A program made the position numbers and the translations under genes. Below the pieces are notes generated by a model, which did no database searches, was not told the origin of the DNA, and was given only the letters and a program-made list of their open reading frames with translations. A stretch of 64,000 nucleotides of DNA from the human T2T-CHM13v2.0 reference genome, Homo sapiens: assembly GCF_009914755.1 (NCBI RefSeq), contig NC_060929.1; one strand, given 5' to 3'. Position 1 is the stretch's first letter; the number at the start of each line of letters is the position of its first letter. Below are positions 51,035-61,267 of the stretch, piece after piece.

Positions 51035-51596
51035 GAGAGTACTGAATTTCTCTAATCCACTTACTCTCCCGCATTCCTCCACACCTCTGACACCTTTGTT
51101 CCCAGCCTTATACTCCAGTCATTACCTTACTTCCATTTTCACTTAGTCAATAGGTCACATCGCTCTGCCACCTCTCTACCCACCAGACCAAATGCCTTGC
51201 CTTCACTCTTGTTCCTGTGGGTGAACTGTCAGCACTTTGTTTTAGCACCAGTGTCTCCATTTGTCCACTGAATCCTGAGGTGAACTGAAAAATGTTTAAC
51301 AAATAGCTGTCCTTTAAAGTATAAATCAAGCAAGGCCCTGATTTCCAAAGGTTGCTGATTCCTGTGGTGTAAATACTCCTACCATGTTTAAAGATGCCAA
51401 CTCGATGTCACTAAACACAAGTTGGGGATTTAGCAACATGGAGTTGAGTGAGGAGTGGGAGTTGGGGAGGGAAGCACAGAAGCACACCATCACATAGTAT
51501 TTCCACCACCCACATACGACAGCCATAAAGAACCAAAAACATAAATAATGGAAAATGTAGCAGGAAGGGATGAGTTTTCAATGTTTATTACTCTTT

Positions 51597-51892: not shown

Positions 51893-54265
51893 TATTTATT
51901 AATTTTTATATGTGATTGTAAATTTATATACTTTAATAATAGCTGTGTTGAATGGCCAGCTCTAGTACATCACTAAAAGTTCCTGTCCTCTTTCTTGTTC
52001 AAGGCCATCTCTCTAGCAATATCCCCCTTCCTTTCTGTATCATCAGCTTTTGTCTCTACTGGGCCATTCCAGCCAGCACAACAAGTACACTGTAATTTCT
52101 TCCATCTAAAAACAAAAACAGAAACAATACAAAAAAAACAACTCTTAACCCCCTATCTTCCTCCAGCTGTATTCCGAGTCTCTGGTCCACTGATGCTCCT
52201 CAAAAGAGCTGCCTGTAATCTCTTGAGCCCATTCCAATCAGTATTTGCCCCCACCACTTCACCGAAACGACTGTTGTCAAGGTCACCAATGACCAAATTG
52301 CTAAATCCAATAATTAATTCTTAATCCCCACCTTACTAAGCCTGTAAGCAGCATTTCCTTGAAATACAGAGGGAGGAGTGGAGAGGAGAATGAGATGCAA
52401 ATGCTCTTACATGTGTTGGATGCATGTTTAAAAGCCACTCCACTATATCACCAATCCCTCCTTACAGGAAAACAAAAAGCAGTCTTCCAGGGAGACTACA
52501 CAGGTCCACAAAGGAGAGATCAATTACCTGCAGAGTTTATGGTATTTTGTATCTGCCTCTTTTACCAGAGTAGCTGGAGACCAGATGTGACATACAAACC
52601 CCCTGCTAGCGTAGGTCCTGGGCCCTGTATCCTCAATCCACTCTGACCATCAGTTTCTCCCAGAGTGTATCTTTAAGCAGGACTTAATCTCCGGATTAAG
52701 TAACCATGAAAGGCCAATGGTGTGTCCTGAAAGATTAAAGGCCCCACCACCTGCAACCTCTACTTGGGGCTGGTTGGCTGAGTGACTTGTGTAAGAACAA
52801 ATGTGACCTGCCCATTCCAAGGACGTTGGGGCTTTCTGAAACGTGTGCCAGACTTGACAACATGAGCCTATTATCTTGTAGCTCTGAATCACAGCCAGTT
52901 TGCACAACAGTAATCTTACTTGCTGGGTCCTCTGAGGGAGCGAGAAGAAACTGTGAAACAAATTTCCATCGCTTTGAAATTGGTTGGCTTAACTGGGCAG
53001 GGACTTGAGGGTGGAAATTTGCTGGCAAACCTTAGAAGTTCATGACCTTATTTGGTCTTTAAGATACCAAATATCTTACTAAAGAACTTTCATAAGATAT
53101 CAAATACCTTTTGTATCTTCACAGGGAGGCACAATAGTTTAAACATGGTAGACATCCAATACATTTAGGTTGAATGAATGAATGAATGAATGATTGTAAA
53201 TGCTGCAAGATTTAAGTGACACAGAACTCCAGCCCTGACCCTGTCTCTCTGCTTTTCTCACCTTCTTCATGTTGGTTCAATTCCCTCTTCTGACCATCCT
53301 GACCATCTCTCTATCACTGATTTTTTGTATCCAGTCTTATAATTATCTGTATATATAAATCACTGTTACTGTGACATTCTCAAGACTGGAGGAACTGCAT
53401 ATATTATTCACTCCTCTCTATCCAGTGCCTAGTAAAATGCTTGGCACCTAGTATATGTTGAATAAACTCACGAATGTACTTAATATAAAATATGACCTTG
53501 AACAAAATCCTTCCTGCCCCTGCAGCTCAGTTTTTCCGTCAACAAAAACTGAAATGCAGGGGCAGAAACTGAGTGGGCCAAGACTGTCTCTAAAATCCAG
53601 CAACCTGACATTTGAGATGTGAGCTAGAGACACAAGCCAAGGCAGGGAACAGGGATATAGTTATTGAAACCAGGGTACAGAATGAGAATTTGCAAGGAAA
53701 ACAAAGCAAAGTATCAGAATAGATTCAAATATGTAAAATATCATGTATGATAAGTAAGCGTGGGTACTAAGGAGACAAAAACTGGAGAAGAAGGATGAGA
53801 AGTGATGGCAGGGCAGGGGAGAGAGGAGCAGTGTTAAAATTTTTTAAAAGAGCTAAGGAAGACCTCTCTGAGAAAATGACATTAAAGTAGAAAAGTTGCA
53901 AGAAGAGGAGGGCAAGTCATGCTCGTATTTGGAGGAGGATCATTCCACGTAGAAGGAATGGCAGGTTCCAAGACCTGAAACAGGCATTCTCCTGATACAT
54001 TTCAGAGCTACAAGGAGGCCAGTATGGCTGTTGCAGAGTTCCTGAGATATAAGGTCAGAAAACATGAATCTAGGTCACATAGGGTCCTCCAGGCCATGGT
54101 AAAGATGTTGGCTTTATCTGTATGAGATGGGAGGCCATTGAGAGTTTTGAGCAGAGGAGAGACATGATCTCAACTGTATATTTTAACAGAATCATTCTGG
54201 CTACTTACAGTTTGGAGAAGTGACTATGGGGAGGCAAAGCAAAGAAAGAGACCAATTAAGAGGTA

Positions 54266-55526
54266 TGATATTTTACATATATATATGTAAAATTTCCTCC
54301 CCAACTCCCACTCCTCACTAAACTCCACTCCTCCACGTATAAATATAGATTCATGGTTCCTGGCTGATAACTCCCATAGCCCTTGCTACAGTCTTTTGCT
54401 ATAGTATTGGGACACTTTAGGCCTCAGAAGCAGGCTTTTCTCTCTCCGACCTTCTTCTGACTTCCCTTCACCTGCCCAAGGCAGGACTCTAATCTTTCCT
54501 GGCTTTTCTGATTGATTTCTCATTCCAGAGAGTGTCCCACCCCATACCCTGCAGGAAGAAATGCTGCACAGGAAGGCCAAGAAGAATCTAGACAGGCGGG
54601 CCTTACTAGGTTTCCTGACTCAGTCTGTTAGTATTATATCATATCCTTTTTTGCCTAATCGTATTTCTACCTGGTTATCTTCAATCATGTCTATCCAATG
54701 GAGTCTTGCTAAGAGACCCAAAAGAACAGGGTTCAGAGAGCTCCCAGCTAGCCAAACATATGGAGATTCCTGGAGGATGGTGCATCCAGGGAGGGCATGG
54801 AAGCTCCATGCCTCTTCCCCTATACCTTGCCCTATGCATCTCTTCAGCTACATCCTTTGTACTATCCTTTATAATAAACTGGTAAATGGAAGTAAGTGTT
54901 TCCCTGAGTTCTATGAGCTGCTCTAGTAAATTAACTGAATCCAAAGAGAGGATCATGGGAAGCCCATCTTGAAGTGGGTCAGTCAGAAGTTCTGGAGGCC
55001 AAGACTTGCAACTAACATCTGAATGGGGGACGGTGGGGACAGCGGAGTGATCTTGTGGGACTGAGTCCTCAACTTGTGGGTTCTGAATTATCTCCAGGTA
55101 GTGTCAGAATTGAATTGGAGGACACCTGGCTGGTGTCCACTGCAGACCTGAGTGCTTGCTTGCTGTGTGGGGAGAAACCACACACACATTTGTATGTGTG
55201 CTGGCAAACCTTAGAATTTCATGACCTTATTTGGTCTTTAAGATAGCAAATATCTTACAAAGATATTTCATCATACATGAGGGCCAAAAATTGCAGTTGT
55301 GATGGTACTGCAGATAACATTATTAATAATATTATGTATTAGTTTATTTGACTCTCACCACAATTGCCATTACTGAAGGAGGGCAGAGGAACTCAGGAGT
55401 TTCATACTGACCTAGGCAACATGGTGAAACCTGGTCTCTACAAAAAATAGAACGTCTTCTGTGTTGATGATTTTTGTAATGTGAGAGCACAGGAAAAAAA
55501 CATGATTTGAGCTTGTTCTCCCCTCA
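54266..55526 (+). mobile_element. MER21-like LTR carrying a foreign mosaic insertion; sits in an L2 remnant
   Basis: catggttcctggct...ctttataataaactggtaaat...aattggaggacacctggctggtgtcc...gtcttctgtgttg; agaggt repeated on both sides. Confidence 0.75.
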
Positions 55527-55734
55527 AGAGGTGATTGCCATAATCTAGATAAGAGGAAATGATGGCTGAGACCACAGTGGTATCAGTGGTGATCAGTTTT
55601 TAGGTTCTGGATCCCTTGTGAAGGTAGAGCTGGAAAGGTGTGCTGAAAGATCAGAAGTGGGAAGAAGAAGAGCCAAGGCCCAGTCTGGCCACCATCTAGA
55701 GAAAGCCTGTCTGACTGTAGAGGGAAATAAAGCC

Positions 55735-56530
55735 AGATGTGTTCATTTTCAAAGTGCCACAAATGGATGGCTTGAAAAACATAAATTTATTGTCTCACAG
55801 CTTTGGATTCCAGAAGTCATAAATCAAGGTGTTGTTGGCAAGATGGATTCCTTCTGAGGGTTCAGAGGGAGAATCTGTCCCATGCCTCTCCCCTAGCTTC
55901 TAATAGCCCCAGGCATTTCTTAGCTTGTGGATGGTCTTCTTGTGACTTCACATTGTCTTCTCTCTACACTTGTCTGTTTTTGTGTCCAAATTTTTATAAG
56001 AACTTTAGATTAAGAGCCACCCTAATGACCTCAACTGTTATACACAAAATTGTGTCCCTAAAATTTATATGTTGAAGTGCTAACACCCTGTACCTCAGGA
56101 TGTGACTGTATTCAAAGACAGGAGCTTTGAAAGGGTAACTAGGTAACTAACGTAAAATGAGGTCATACTGCTGGGCCCTAATAACCCATATGATTGGTGC
56201 CCTTATCAGAAGAAGAGCTTAGGACACAAACATGCACAGAGGGAAGACCATGTGAAGAAAGAGAGAGACGAAGGCCACCAACAAGGCAAGGAGAAATCAA
56301 TCCTGCTGATGCCTTCATCTCAGACTTCTGGGCTCCAGAACTGTGAGGAAATGAATATCTGTTATTTAAGCCAAACAGTCTGTGGTACTTTGTTATGGAA
56401 GTCCTAGCAAGCTAATACATCATTTTAACTTGATCATCTGATAAAACTTTCTTTCCAAATGAGACCACATTCATAGGCACTGAGGGTTAGGACTTCAACA
56501 TCTTTTTGAAGGACACAATTTAACCAATAA
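55735..56530 (-). mobile_element. MLT1C-like LTR interrupted by an oppositely oriented MLT1B-like LTR (56036-56419, +)
   Basis: aaatttattgtctcacag...ctaatgacctca [tgttat...gctaataca] tcattttaacttgat...gggttaggacttcaaca. Confidence 0.75.
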
Positions 56531-58526
56531 TATCAGACACAAGCAGAGACAAAAGATGAAGAGAGATTCTGGAGGCACTGGACCTCCAGTTCTGGTCCCT
56601 GAATCCCATGAATTGCCATGTTTCCTGCAGCTCCTTCTTGGATTATCTGAGCTTGGTCAGGATCCTTCCAGGCAATCTCCTTTTGTGCTTAGCTTAATTT
56701 GAGTTGAGTTTTCTAGCACTTTGAACTGAGACTCCTATCTAGTATGACGTGGAAGAAAAATTTAGCTGCTGTGAGTTCATGTGCCCAAAGAAAAAGAAGA
56801 GAAAAGGAAAGAAAAAAGATTCTTTATTGCCCACTCTTTTTCCATCTCCAAATCAGCCCAGCTCTTGAGATCTTTGAAAGTTGAGCTGCCTTTTACATTG
56901 ATGTTTTCAACTCTCCATATTTACCCTCTTCACCTTGATTGTTTAGAAATCCAATAAGAATTTTATTCATCTTGTTTGTTTGGTAAAATTGCATCCTTTA
57001 AGGCCAATTCGCCTCACCATATGAGTACAAAAGGGGAAATTTTCTTTGTAATAGCAGGTAGCAATTAGTGGCATGCATTTTATTTTATCTTAATGGCATG
57101 CATTTTATTTCTTTTTTTTTAAATTTCACTGACTTGAAGCTCATAATGGCATGCATTTTAAAAGCATCTATTTAAGATGCTTCTTATCTGGGAAGACCAA
57201 TTTTTAAAAAATGATCTCACAATAGACTGAAGGCCAAAAATTACAGAAGGGCAGTTGTGGTACTGCAGATAATAATAATAATAGTAATAATAAAATCAAA
57301 GGCATACAGAGAGAATTTCAGATGACATATAACTTAGAAAGTTAAGGGATAACACATTGAAACTCCAATGTGAGTAAGTTTAACAAGTCCTTTCCTTTCC
57401 TACATATTTTTCCAGTGGGGGAGGCCATGAGCAGATACTGAAGGGTTGGAATGGGTAGGAGAAGGGGAAAGGAGAGAAGGGGCAGGGAAGGCGGCAGCCA
57501 TGAAGGGCCCCAGGGCAAAGGAAGAGTAAACTAACAGAAAAATAGCAAACTTAACAACTTTCCTTGGGCTAGTTATTACATTATTTTTCCAAAGGACTAT
57601 CTGATTGATGAGATAAGCAGAAATGGTAATGTTATCAATCAGTGAAGTACAACCCAAGAATAATGACAGCTATCAAATGATAAATTATTCCCAAACCCAA
57701 GTGCTGTCTGAAGGGCTTTATATAGACACTCAATCTTTACAACAATCTGAAGAAGCAGGTATTTGTCTCAGATTGGGTTCCTTCGAAACAGACTATGAGA
57801 CAAGGATTTATATACAGGGATGAGGATGGGGGTACTTTAGAGCGATACACCCCTGAGGAAGTGAAGAATGGAGTGTTGGACAACAAGACAATCTGCTCCA
57901 AAATTTGGTGCCAGTTGAGTCCTCAACCAATCCTATAGAAATCCCTGGAGCTGGGTGGCCCCCAATGAGGTAAGGAGGCTGGGTGACAAGCCTCAGAAAG
58001 GAGCACAGCTTTGAGGAGGGTGGGGAGCACAGGCCCTAAAGAGGGGGCATTAGTGAAGCACTGCCACATTCATTACCATTATTATCCACAGTTCACAGAT
58101 GAATAAACTGAAGCATGGAGGGGCTAATTAACTCATCCAAAGGGATAGACTCCCATTTCACTAAATTTTATTTGCAAAGATGTAAACTAATAGATTCAAA
58201 GTCAGTACATGAAAACTGGAATTATTTGAAACCACAACACACAAGAGTATCCAGATTAAAGACACTGATGTTTCCTTAAAAAAGAAAAGGCAGTCAGAAG
58301 AGGTGCTGGCCACTATGAAATAATGGGAAAATAACATTCAATAGGTAAACATGGATATTGGGGAAATTATACCTAGAAATAGAAGATTCAGGTAAGGACT
58401 TTCATTATTTTCCCATTGAAAAAAAAAATTATTTTCCTAAAATGGTCACATCAAGATTAATGAAGCCATTCTCATCTTAATCTGTTCCAGAATTAAAATA
58501 ATAATAATAATAATAAAAGATTAACC

Positions 58527-58816
58527 AGGCGAGCTTGGTGGCTCACACCCATAATCCTAGCACTTTGGGAAACTGAGGAGGGCAGAGGAACTCGGGAGTT
58601 TCATACTGACCTAGGCAACATGGTGAAACCCGGTCTCTACAAAAAATAGAAAAATTAGCTAGATATAGTGGTGTGCACCTGTAGTCCCAGCTACTCAGGA
58701 GGTTGAAGTGGGAGGATCACCTGGGCCTGGAGAGGTCAAGGCTGCAGTGGCTGTGACTGTGCCACTGCACTCCAGCCTGGGCGACAGAGTGAGACCTTGT
58801 CTTAAAAAAAAAAAAA
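58527..58816 (+). mobile_element. AluJ with a private left-arm deletion
   Basis: TSD-like aaaagatt(a/g)acc at 58515-58526 and 58813-58824. Confidence 0.9.
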
Positions 58817-61267
58817 GATTGACCCATGCGGATGCGCCTTCAGAGCAGTAAAACAAGTAAGTGAATACATAAGATTAACCTCATTCATCGTTTGGAGCTT
58901 GAGATAAAACAAAATTTTTTAAAAAGATTTACCTCAAGCAACCGCCTGATTCCTGTCTTGGTCAGCTCACCAAACCAACTGTTCTTATCAATAAGAAAGT
59001 TGCTAACTGGTAATTGGTACAGTAGTAATGCCTCAGAATGAATAAAGTGGTTCCTGATTTTGCTTCAGCTTCCCAATATCCTGAATGGCTATTGTGTGTG
59101 ATATTATGCATTGATTGTATGTACTTGGTTTTCCTGCATCTACTCCTAAGACATAGACCCTCTCTTAGAAGTGAGAAAAAACAGATGCTGAGCATGACAG
59201 TCGAAAGGTTAACTTCTGAGAAGTTACAACTTTCCTGTGTCAAATGCACCCTACCATTATCATCCTACCATGACCAGACATGACAAACTTGCTTTTCTTT
59301 ACTATAGCTATTGCCATTGTGTTATATATGGTGACCAGGAGTCAGGCCAGCCTGTAGTTCTGCATGAAATAATATTACAGTGATGCTCTAAGAATCTCCC
59401 TGAGACAACTGCTTATTCAACTGTTAAAGGATAGGAGATCATTCTTAGTCCCCCTAAAATGCTAATTAGTCCATCAATAGCTGTTTCCCTAACCTCGGAG
59501 CTGGAATAAAGAGAAAGCTTAAATGCCAATTTTTCTGGGCACAAATCTTAAAAGATTCATTCATCTACTACAACATATGATACCAAGCAGCCAAAATGTG
59601 CCCCTTGACTTGGGAATGAATTACAAATATCACAGCTTATGATCAATCAACAAGGGGGACTCCAGAAGAAAAGGGCAATCCCAACTGCCCCTCCAGCACT
59701 CTTGGGACTAGATGGAGTCTACGGTCATGTTGCTGAGAGAGAGGGCACTTAAACAAGAAAAAAACTGGTAGTGCCAATTCCTAGGACAAATATTTCTGGG
59801 ATTCAGAGACTTATGTAAGGTGGATAAATAATTCTTTGGTAGGTCTATTTACTCTCCACTCTTTCTGTAGTATTTATTAAGCATTTTCTGTACACTTGGC
59901 TCAGAACATGTTAGAACATAAAAGTAAGAGATCATTCTCCCCTCAAAGAGTAGACTGGGAATTGTTGATTATCTGGTCACCATTCATTCTGCCTTCAAGT
60001 TTTTATCGTAGCCCTAATAAGCACTAGCACAGGGACCTGAAAGGAGGTTGACTCACTCCCAGTTTCCAAAGTGGGCCTGATTGATCCAAGGATAATCTCC
60101 ACTCCTAGGAACTGGCAATAGAACAGCCATATGGCACAGATTGGACCAATGAGACATGAAGAGAGGTTTACTGGGGGATTCTGGAAATTAGCTCCCCTCC
60201 CCTAGATATGAACAAGGAAATGCCCCAAGCTGAGGCTAGTAGACATCCTATGGGTAGATAGCCTTGGTTTGATGTCATCCCTGTGATGAGAGAAGCCAAT
60301 AGCTGGGGAAAAGTTGGGCTTTCAGTGAACACTGTGGAGATCCTGGACCCACCATTCCTAAAAGACACACTCTTTCCATTGCCCCATACTAACAAGTCCA
60401 CTTTGTTGTTTAAGCTACTTTGAGTTGGATTCTGTTACTTGCAACCTAAAGAATCCTAATTGGTAAAAATCTAGCAGTCTATATTTAGCTCCCCTGGAGA
60501 TGTATTTTCTAAAATCAAGCCATAGCAGGAAATACTGTTGGAACTATGTTGCAAATTTCTGAAAGACGGAACTCGGTCTCATGTTTCTTTGTATATCTAG
60601 CACTCAACAAATACTAAATGCTTAACACCTCGTGCAATTCAGATAAGATAATGTGAAAGTAAGTGTTCTGGCAGTAGAAGCTGCTACTCAAATAAAATAA
60701 TAAAGGAAATAAGCTCTTAATAATAACAGCTAAAATTTATTGGGCACTTAATATGTGGCAGGCACTATTATTTGTGTAATTGCTTTGAGTAATTTATGTG
60801 TATTAGTTCATTTAACTCTTACCACAATTGCCAGGTATAGTTATTATCCATAGTTTACAGGTTGGGAAGCTGAGGTACAACACATTTACTAAGATATAGA
60901 ACAGTAGTTAGATAACTAATGACTTACAAAAATAGAATTTTAAAGTCTCATGCCTCAACCAGTAGGTCTTATTTAAGCCAGTTCAAAACAAGATTGTGTT
61001 TCATCTTCTAGACAAAATAAGAGGGTGAAAAATATAGATTTGCTTAGTTTTTTACAACATTTTAATATGTCATGTTGATTTATAGATTCTTGGAAACCTA
61101 TTTTTTTCATTTTGCTGCAGTCTAAAGGTTATTGTAGAAGCATTTAATAATACATACTTTTATTAGCCGAATCTGTTATCTTTACTGTCTTACTAAAATT
61201 TATCTACTTGTTAACCTAGACATACTATGCCATGTATCTTTGAGCTAAAACCCCCAATATTCAAATC

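What the first reader, a model, noticed from the sequence alone, without database searches (positions are those of the whole stretch)
55193..55452. Four-part mosaic insertion assembled from scattered neighbouring sites (fossil serial template switching)
Seen: the MER21-like LTR is interrupted by ~260 bp made of consecutive same-strand copies of four separate loci. A: 55199-55271 copies 53020-53093 (~69/74 identical). B: 55278-55331 copies ~57228-57285 (ggccaaaaatt...gcagttg..tggtactgcagataa, with indels). C: 55335-55369 copies 60799-60833 (32/35). D: 55372-55452 copies 58572-58651 (2 CpG transitions and 1 indel), including that Alu's private 'ggcagaggaactc.ggagtttcatactgacc' variant. The donors lie at -2.2, +2.0, +5.5 and +3.2 kb, i.e. 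out of linear order. The insert opens with a small fold-back (cacacat-ttgt-atgtgtg). Inference: a single germline break was repaired by repeated template switching (FoSTeS/MMBIR or Pol theta-type templated insertion) among physically close DNA, then fixed. The 4-9% divergence suggests an old primate event. Repeat annotation would split it into unrelated scraps.
Basis: partly seen in the sequence, partly recalled or inferred. Interest (0 to 1): 0.85.

Follow-up and report, generated by a model that had tools for sequence, protein, structure and literature searches.

The report
Four-donor local patch in an LTR
A 260-base insertion in an old repeat is stitched together from copies of four nearby DNA stretches, a scar of sloppy DNA-break repair of a kind already catalogued in primate genomes, here with unusually many donor pieces.

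Summary
Window 55193-55452 interrupts an old interspersed LTR-type repeat. In 10 of 11 other genomic copies the repeat runs straight from the base matching 55192 into the sequence matching 55447-55455 onward. The insert is four same-strand copies of sites 2.0-5.5 kb away: A 53020-53093 (69/74), B 57228-57289 (three exact blocks with indels), C 60799-60833 (32/35) and D 58572-58651 (78/81). Genome-wide, each local donor is the only or clearly best match. There is no target-site duplication, poly(A) or splice-site pattern. The junctions carry 2-6-nt fillers, one 3-6-nt microhomology and a small target deletion. Substitution divergence is uniform across the pieces: 10/225 = 4.4%, homogeneity P = 0.50.

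Best reading: one germline break or stalled-fork repair that copied several nearby templates in turn. This is a chimeric "repair-mediated duplication", the class Pace et al. described in 2009 (824 proximal cases, 20 with two donors). So it is a complex new member of a known kind, not a new mechanism. Timing and single-event origin need primate orthologues, which I could not get.

The parts
54349..55192 (+). Left part of the interrupted LTR-type interspersed repeat (acceptor)
   Evidence: It aligns at 73-79% identity to 11 other genomic copies, and the alignments end at 55143-55192. The first ~35 nt of the repeat seen in copies L020 and L022 were not found in the window.
55193..55198 (+). 6-nt filler (TATGTG) at the repeat-to-A junction
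   Evidence: It matches neither the other repeat copies nor the sequence upstream of donor A. With the next 2 nt it forms the right arm of a 7-nt inverted match to 55183-55189. That match is weak and low-complexity.
55199..55271 (+). Piece A, a copy of 53020-53093
   Evidence: 69/74 identical. The only other genomic match at E<=10 is the local donor.
53020..53093 (+). Donor A, in unique sequence 2.2 kb upstream
55272..55277 (+). 6-nt filler (CATACA) at the A-to-B junction
   Evidence: No significant match to the sequence downstream of donor A or upstream of donor B. Tests of a leftward extension of B fell within shuffles (169/500, 269/500 and 476/500 shuffles scored at least as high).
55278..55334 (+). 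Piece B, an error-laden copy of 57228-57289
   Evidence: Three exact blocks of 11, 7 and 15 nt with gaps of 8 and 3 nt, then an AT-rich tail. The core scores 50 against 25 for the next best site, and 60 shuffles reach at most 32.
57228..57289 (+). Donor B, 2.0 kb downstream
   Evidence: A genome-wide search with 57190-57300 found only itself, at that tool's limited sensitivity.
55335..55369 (+). Piece C, a copy of 60799-60833. A gapped alignment allows it to start at 55327, overlapping B's AT-rich end.
   Evidence: 32/35 identical. Genome-wide there are exactly 2 places with <=3 mismatches, itself and the local donor, and 0 for the reversed control pattern.
60799..60833 (+). Donor C, inside a longer element that continues on both sides
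   Evidence: I identify that element as MIR by eye, from recall. The donor's context continues past the copied part and the insert's does not.
55370..55371 (+). 2-nt filler (TT) at the C-to-D junction
   Evidence: boundary comparisons.
55372..55452 (+). Piece D, a copy of part of the neighbouring Alu
   Evidence: 78/81 identical. It shares a 5-nt deletion and several private variants with the donor Alu against 5 of 5 other Alus. Other Alus genome-wide reach at most 89% identity, and only one (81%) aligns upstream of query position 197.
58572..58651 (+). Donor D, an internal part of a full-length Alu (about 58526-58812), 3.2 kb downstream
55447..55452 (+). Microhomology (ATAGAA) shared by the end of donor D and the resuming repeat
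   Evidence: Donor D ends with this hexamer. Other repeat copies read ATAGAA, AGAA or ATGGAA at the homologous place.
55453..55538 (+). Right part of the interrupted repeat
   Evidence: In 10 of 11 copies the sequence just after the base matching 55192 aligns to the window from 55441-55455 onward, scoring above each copy's 30-shuffle maximum. Alignments are shown. The repeat ends near 55538.

Best explanation
In a primate ancestor's germline, a DNA break or collapsed replication fork inside an old LTR-type repeat was repaired by copying rather than simple rejoining. A free 3' end, or the two ends of the break, primed DNA synthesis on nearby sequence and came off after 35-81 nt. It re-primed at another site within about 8 kb and did this four times (53.0, 57.2, 60.8 and 58.6 kb). 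The product then rejoined the repeat through a short ATAGAA-type match. The result is a 254-260-bp mosaic duplication with all donors left intact, about 3-5 bp of the repeat lost, and 2-6-nt fillers at three junctions. It later became fixed.

This is a four-donor chimeric 'repair-mediated duplication' (synthesis-dependent repair with repeated template switching; the FoSTeS/MMBIR family of models).

Shown: the anatomy, the donor identities, the direction of copying for C and D, the absence of retrotransposition marks, and uniform divergence. Inferred: that it was a single event, that the templates were DNA, and which polymerase or pathway acted.

A two-ended version is possible. The left end would copy A then B, the right end D then C, and the two products would anneal in the AT-rich B/C overlap. 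I cannot tell this apart from a one-ended chain.
For: - The repeat is truly interrupted. In 10 of 11 other copies the sequence right after the base matching 55192 aligns to 55441-55455 onward.
- Four same-strand local donors exist, each the only or best genomic match. For B the evidence is.
- Copying ran from donor to insert for C and D. These donors sit inside longer elements that continue on both sides, and the insert holds only fragments.
- There is no target-site duplication abutting the insert, no A-run longer than 6, no AATAAA, and no consistent AG/GT or AC/CT at donor edges.
- The junction features fall within the ranges reported for proximal repair-mediated duplications: microhomology 2-9 nt, filler 1-68 nt, deletion 1-15 nt, donors mostly under 5 kb, mean length 162 bp (PMC2671141 sections 6-7).
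- Substitutions are homogeneous across the pieces: A 4/73, B 1/37, C 3/35, D 2/80; P = 0.50.
- Three of the only five short high-identity pairs in 64 kb converge on this 260-bp stretch.
Against: - Single-event origin and age rest on divergence alone. With 10 substitutions the homogeneity test has little power.
- Clear microhomology exists at only one junction (D to repeat, 3-6 nt) and probably at a second (B to C, AT-rich, ambiguous). The other three have fillers, which also fit end-joining of ready-made fragments.
- Piece B has three gaps (8, 3 and 3 nt; the last opens the AT-rich tail) and an unalignable AT-rich tail. These could reflect sloppy copying, but equally later indels in a microsatellite-like donor.
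- Nothing excludes RNA templates.
- If orientation were random, all four pieces matching the chromosome's orientation has chance 1/16. The DNA model does not by itself predict this.
- The fold-back at the left junction is not statistically supported.
Confidence: 0.65

Rival explanations
1. RNA-templated patch. A break was filled by reverse transcription of a local nascent transcript (class 2 templated-sequence insertion, or endonuclease-independent LINE-1-type repair), with the reverse transcriptase jumping four times along or between RNA fragments from the same 8-kb region.
For: All four pieces come from the same strand, as expected if one RNA species was the template. There is no target-site duplication or poly(A), and there are fillers and microhomology. 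These are the features listed for class 2 templated-sequence insertions (PMC5110952, parts 1-2 of 4 read). The donors lie 3-11 kb upstream of the PRELID2 start, where divergent transcription is conceivable; this is inference from the hub's gene table.
Against: No transcript is annotated across 52-62 kb in the hub's table. No splice junctions are present. The pieces are out of linear order (C before D). In Pace et al., 0 of the 39 inspected proximal (<5 kb) duplications had poly(A/T) tracts, and the authors attribute them to DNA-templated repair. Class 2 insertions were described from distant, not adjacent, loci.
Confidence: 0.12
2. Fragment capture. Four short double-stranded DNA fragments, released from the sister chromatid or homologue or from over-replicated local DNA, were ligated end to end into a break by non-homologous end joining.
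For: Three of the five junctions have 2-6-nt fillers and no clear microhomology. The small target deletion is typical of end joining.
Against: Random ligation gives all four pieces the chromosome's orientation with chance 1/16. The gaps inside B and the 1-nt indels in A and D look more like error-prone copying than ligation of ready-made fragments, though later mutation could have produced them. Donor D's private ATAGAA coincides exactly with the repeat's resumption point, which suggests annealing.
Confidence: 0.1
3. Several independent insertions landed at the same fragile spot at different times (nested repair-mediated duplications).
For: The point estimates of divergence differ (D 2.5%, A 5.5%, C 8.6%). 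The same LTR has a further local patch near its 5' edge, so the region may be prone to such events.
Against: The divergence differences are not significant (P = 0.50). Four hits abutting within 260 bp, with nothing between them but 2-6-nt fillers or an AT-rich overlap, would be very improbable given only 1-2 such pairs elsewhere in 64 kb.
Confidence: 0.08
4. Chance similarity, generic repeat matches or an assembly artefact.
For: C and D lie in common repeat families, and B is only 74% identical.
Against: Genome-wide, C has exactly one other match at <=3 mismatches. D shares a private deletion and variants with the local Alu only. A is unique apart from its donor. The B core lies far above shuffles. 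A divergence of 4.4% between copies is not what a misassembly would give.
Confidence: 0.02

Closest known systems
[quoted passage not shown]
   Same: A transposable element is interrupted by a duplicate of nearby unique DNA. Donors lie within a few kb on the same chromosome and stay intact. There is no poly(A). Breakpoints carry microhomology, filler and a small deletion. The total length (260 bp) is within their range (mean 162, maximum 619 bp). They report chimeric acceptors.
   Different: Their chimeras have 2 donors (20 cases, only 5 with both donors local). This one has 4 local donors plus fillers, and the pieces are 35-81 bp, so two are shorter than their 50-bp minimum insertion. One donor is 5.46 kb away, just over their 5-kb cut-off. 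Their pipeline dropped acceptors found in more than two matching pieces, so a case like this may have been filtered out.
FoSTeS / MMBIR complex rearrangements and MMBIR-type templated insertions (Osia et al. 2021, NAR, PMC8421209; found passages read)
   Same: Serial template switches join several short copied segments in one event. The events exist as germline variants, and the paper states that germline events can copy from up to five templates.
   Different: The insertions that study detects are inverted copies of templates within 100 bp of the insertion. Here the templates are 2-5.5 kb away and all in direct orientation. Classical FoSTeS/MMBIR cases (recalled, not read here) involve larger copy-number changes.
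Class 2 templated-sequence insertion polymorphisms (Onozawa and Aplan 2016, PMC5110952; parts 1-2 of 4 read)
   Same: A patch inserted at a break, with no target-site duplication or poly(A), and with microhomology, microdeletion and non-templated bases.
   Different: Those patches come from distant loci and are argued to be RNA-derived. Here all donors are within 5.5 kb, and no evidence of RNA origin was found.
Short-range template switching in great-ape genomes (Walker et al. 2021, PMC7954356; search listing and start of abstract only)
   Same: Template-switch mutations fixed during primate evolution.
   Different: As I recall, those are single, very local events that produce inverted copies over tens of bases. 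They are not four direct copies from kilobases away.

Membership tests
Repair-mediated duplication (Pace et al. 2009) | A transposable element split by >=50 bp of foreign sequence, with the element resuming at about the same position | tested here: met
   In 10 of 11 other copies the element continues from the base matching 55192 into 55441-55455 onward, with only 3-9 nt between. No family consensus was used, only copy-to-copy comparison.
Repair-mediated duplication (Pace et al. 2009) | The inserted sequence has one identifiable parental copy elsewhere in the genome | tested here: met
   This holds piece by piece: A, C, D, and B at lower sensitivity. As a whole the insert has four parents, which the original pipeline would not have accepted.
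Repair-mediated duplication (Pace et al. 2009) | Donor within 5 kb on the same chromosome (proximal class) | tested here: inconclusive
   A is 2.18 kb, B 1.95 kb and D 3.20 kb away, so these qualify. C is 5.46 kb away, just over an ad-hoc cut-off.
Repair-mediated duplication (Pace et al. 2009) | Breakpoints with microhomology, filler or deletion and without a poly(A/T) tract | tested here: met
   Fillers of 6, 6 and 2 nt, a 3-6-nt microhomology at D/repeat, about 3-5 nt of the repeat missing, and a longest A-run of 6.
FoSTeS / MMBIR | Two or more template switches within one event | tested here: inconclusive
   Four donors abut in one insert and their divergence is homogeneous. That it was one event is inferred, because no orthologues were available.
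FoSTeS / MMBIR | Microhomology at the switch points | tested here: inconclusive
   Clear at 1 of 5 junctions, likely at 1 (AT-rich overlap), and fillers at 3.
FoSTeS / MMBIR | Origin at a stalled or collapsed replication fork | not testable with these tools
   No replication or experimental data were available. The hairpin-prone CA/TG sequence at the break is not significant.
Pol theta-mediated end joining with templated insertion | Short inserts copied from templates very close to the break (recalled: tens of bases) | tested here: not met
   The pieces are 35-81 nt, from 2.0-5.5 kb away. Only the 6-nt left filler might be a snap-back copy of the adjacent 7-mer, and that is weak.
LINE-1-mediated retrocopy / class 1 templated insertion | Target-site duplication, poly(A) tail and a polyadenylation signal | tested here: not met
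   No shared word abuts both flanks, there is no A-run longer than 6, and AATAAA is absent.
Processed (spliced) transcript copy | Piece boundaries at GT-AG introns and pieces in transcript order | tested here: not met
   None of the 4 donors has AG just upstream. Only C has GT, one base past its end. The minus-strand pattern is also absent, and C and D are out of genomic order.

The most novel reading that the evidence does not exclude
All four pieces come from one strand of one 8-kb neighbourhood and are joined out of order. This may be because the template was a single-stranded local molecule: a nascent or looped RNA tethered near the break, copied by a reverse transcriptase that jumped along it. 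That would make this a fossil of RNA-templated break repair in cis in the primate germline. A related bold reading is that the mosaic and the inverted 35-bp patch with its 24-nt perfect palindrome at the other edge of the same LTR are scars of one multi-break replication collapse.
Probability: 0.12. Interest if true: 0.65.

Novelty: new member of a known kind. Interest (0 to 1): 0.35.

Why it matters
It is a clean, fully resolved example of a single-locus repair scar built from four nearby templates. It shows that germline break repair in primates can chain more template switches over kilobase distances than the two-donor chimeras catalogued so far. Events like this are likely to be missed by repeat annotation and by pipelines that expect one donor. 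The fixed order, the single orientation and the mix of fillers and microhomology could constrain repair models if the pre-insertion allele is recovered from other primates. There is no sign of any function for the insert itself.

Tried and rejected
- **Spliced-transcript retrocopy:** rejected. There is no AG/GT or AC/CT pattern at donor edges, and C and D are out of order.
- **LINE-1 type insertion:** rejected. No target-site duplication, poly(A) or AATAAA.
- **Leftward extension of piece B into 55226-55277**, suggested by one local alignment: rejected. Scores fell within shuffles (169/500, 269/500 and 476/500 shuffles scored at least as high).
- **Hairpin or fold-back at the break as a significant structure:** not supported (z = -1.88; 9 of 200 shuffles fold as well).
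- **Better donors outside the window:** none found. The 100 kb to the right gave only generic Alu hits at <=83% for D and nothing for A, B or C. Genome-wide searches gave only the local donors. The genome-wide DNA search is insensitive, though. It missed even the local B and C donors, so for B the genome-wide claim rests on score statistics.
- **Further local patches elsewhere in the LTR (54150-55110):** only the inverted 35-mer and a palindrome were found.
- **The missing 5' head of the LTR upstream of 54349:** not found.
- **Literature:** searches turned up no paper describing this locus or a four-local-donor fixed insertion. That is not proof that none exists.
- **Not done:** no primate orthologues, no other human assemblies, and no test of the repeat-family name, because no tool offered these.

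Full report
**What is there.** Window 55193-55452 was read directly and compared with the rest of the window. It consists of four consecutive + strand copies of sites in the same neighbourhood.

| Piece | Insert | Donor | Match |
|---|---|---|---|
| A | 55199-55271 | 53020-53093 | 69 of 74 columns (4 mismatches, 1 gap) |
| B | 55278-55334 | 57228-57289 | 73.8% of 65 columns |
| C | 55335-55369 | 60799-60833 | 32/35 |
| D | 55372-55452 | 58572-58651 | 78 of 81 columns |

B has exact blocks of 11, 7 and 15 nt separated by gaps of 8 and 3 nt, then an AT-rich tail. Both mismatches in D are CpG in the donor and TpG/CpA in the copy, and D also has a 1-nt indel. The donors lie at -2.2, +2.0, +5.5 and +3.2 kb, so C and D are out of genomic order.

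**More than chance.** A self-BLAST of the whole 64-kb window gives only 5 non-self pairs at >=90% identity and >=30 bp. Three of them (A, C, D) end in this 260-bp stretch. A rough calculation gives a Bonferroni-corrected P of about 0.002. B is weaker, but its 40-nt non-repetitive core scores 50 at the 57.2-kb site. The next best place on either strand of the window scores 25, and 60 shuffled queries reach at most 32.

**Local donors are the best donors genome-wide.** The window's own assembly could be searched.
- The whole insert finds the local Alu as the best match for D (96%, covering query 180-260). The other 37 scored Alu matches are at most 89% identical, and all but one (81%, from query 183) begin at query position 197 or later.
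- An alignment shows that insert and donor Alu share a 5-nt deletion and several private variants, including the terminal ATAGAA, against 5 of 5 other Alus.
- A has only one other match at E<=10, the local donor.
- The C 35-mer has exactly two places in the genome with <=3 mismatches, itself and the local donor. The reversed control pattern has none.
- A 100-nt query spanning B and C found only itself, and the B donor region found only itself. That tool did not detect even the local B and C donors, so its sensitivity for short or gapped matches is limited.
- The 100 kb to the right of the window holds only generic Alu matches (<=83%) and nothing for A, B or C.

**The acceptor is an interrupted repeat.** The left flank (54800-55192) belongs to a large family: 2,903 first-look candidates, of which 40 were scored at 73-79% identity. 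I compared the window with 11 of those copies.
- BLAST shows the right flank following directly in three of them.
- A more sensitive local alignment shows that in 10 of 11 copies the sequence just after the base matching 55192 aligns to the window from 55441-55455 onward, each above its own 30-shuffle maximum. The exception is L017.
- The printed alignments for 7 copies show the repeat reading through the point matching 55192, then 3-9 nt, then a hexamer of the form ATAGAA, AGAA or ATGGAA, followed by the sequence seen at 55454 onward.

So the insert is 254-260 bp, about 3-5 bp of the repeat is missing, and the last six bases of D (55447-55452) could come from either donor D or the repeat. That is a 3-6-nt microhomology. 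The repeat ends near 55538. I did not test the family name 'MER21'.

**Junctions**.
- Repeat to A: a 6-nt filler (55193-55198).
- A to B: a 6-nt filler (55272-55277). A suggested leftward extension of B was within shuffle scores and is rejected.
- B to C: an ambiguous AT-rich overlap (about 55318-55334). A gapped alignment lets C start at 55327.
- C to D: a 2-nt filler.
- D to repeat: the microhomology above, then one extra C.

It lies in CA/TG-rich sequence, and the local DNA fold is not significant (z = -1.88; 9 of 200 shuffles fold as well).

**What it is not.**
- No shared word abuts both flanks, so there is no target-site duplication.
- The longest A-run is 6 and there is no AATAAA.
- None of the four donors has AG just upstream. 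Only C has GT, one base past its end, and the minus-strand pattern is absent too.

A LINE-1-type retrocopy and a spliced-RNA copy are therefore rejected. Copying ran from donor to insert at least for C and D. Those donors sit inside longer elements that continue on both sides (a full-length Alu, and an element I recognise by eye, from recall, as MIR), whereas the insert holds only fragments.

**One event or several, and when.** Substitutions are 4/73 (A), 1/37 (B blocks), 3/35 (C) and 2/80 (D). That totals 10/225 = 4.4% (95% CI 2.1-8.2%). There is no heterogeneity (P = 0.50), but power is low.

From recalled primate divergence levels (human-orangutan about 3%, human-macaque about 6%), this points to an event somewhere around the ape/Old World monkey splits. 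This is inference. No primate orthologues were available to me.

Indels in the well-aligned parts number 4-5. That looks high for this divergence if the indel-to-substitution ratio is about 1:8 (recalled), which would fit error-prone copying. It could also be later mutation.

**Mechanism.** The anatomy fits a break or stalled fork repaired by synthesis primed on nearby DNA, with repeated dissociation and re-priming, and final re-annealing to the repeat through the ATAGAA match. All four pieces are in direct orientation, so the same strand (the minus strand) served as template on both sides of the break. The chance of that under random orientation is 1/16.

I considered a simple two-ended resected break. 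It would expose the needed template strand only on the side opposite each end. That does not explain A sitting next to the left flank together with B-D, unless a sister chromatid or homologue, or lagging-strand gaps, supplied the templates. This part is inference. A two-ended version (left end copies A then B, right end copies D then C, and the products anneal in the AT-rich B/C overlap) is equally possible.

Rivals, in order: RNA or cDNA templates, ligation of captured fragments, and successive independent insertions.

**Comparison with what is known.** The closest described class is the 'repair-mediated duplication' of Pace et al. 2009 (PMC2671141; abstract, sections 6 and 7 and found passages read). 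Their catalogue reports:
- 824 of these with the donor within 5 kb, with mean length 162 bp and maximum 619 bp;
- breakpoints with microhomology of 2-9 nt, fillers of 1-68 nt and deletions of 1-15 nt;
- none of the 39 inspected proximal cases with poly(A/T);
- 20 chimeras of two donors, 5 of them with both donors local;
- events dated across primate evolution.

The present case meets the class features piece by piece. It differs in having four local donors, pieces as short as 35 bp, and one donor at 5.46 kb. Their pipeline discarded acceptors found in more than two matching pieces, so this locus may not be in their list. I could not check Table S1.

Osia et al. [quoted passage not shown] Their method finds inverted templates within 100 bp. 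Class 2 templated-sequence insertions (PMC5110952, parts 1-2 of 4) share the junction features but come from distant loci and are argued to be RNA-derived. Four literature searches showed no description of this locus or of a fixed four-local-donor insertion.

**Verdict.** The phenomenon belongs to a class known since 2009, so this is a notably complex new member of a known kind. It is not a new mechanism. Interest is about 0.35.

Noticed in passing
window 54293-54327 and 51439-51473; palindrome 54270-54293: A fifth local patch. 54293-54327 is an inverted copy (33/35) of 51439-51473, 2.8 kb away, and this pair is the only match genome-wide. It directly abuts a perfect 24-nt palindrome (54270-54293) and lies about 20 bp left of where the same LTR's homology begins (54349). 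The first ~35 nt of the LTR seen in other copies are missing. It may be a second repair scar on the same repeat, or part of the same event. The direction of copying is not settled.
   Followed up: partly
window 53511-53568: A near-perfect hairpin with 25-nt arms, 88% complementary, and an 8-nt loop (I2), about 420 bp downstream of donor A. Its origin is unknown.
   Followed up: no
window 56069-56104 and 56466-56501: 36-nt inverted repeats, 78% complementary, 361 nt apart (I1). By eye they look like the terminal inverted repeats of a small DNA-transposon relic.
   Followed up: no
window 54567-54717: The LTR copies fall into two groups. Four copies match 54349-54566 and then resume from 54716-54755. 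Seven copies start matching only at 54672-54721. About 110-150 bp in between has no counterpart in the first group. This is either subfamily structure or another old insertion. No local donor was found.
   Followed up: partly
window 51367-51521 and 51895-51949 vs L029 (contig C12): A low-copy similarity to a locus on another chromosome (71-84% identity) flanks and partly overlaps the 51.4-kb member of the inverted patch pair. Window 51427-51459 has no counterpart there.
   Followed up: no
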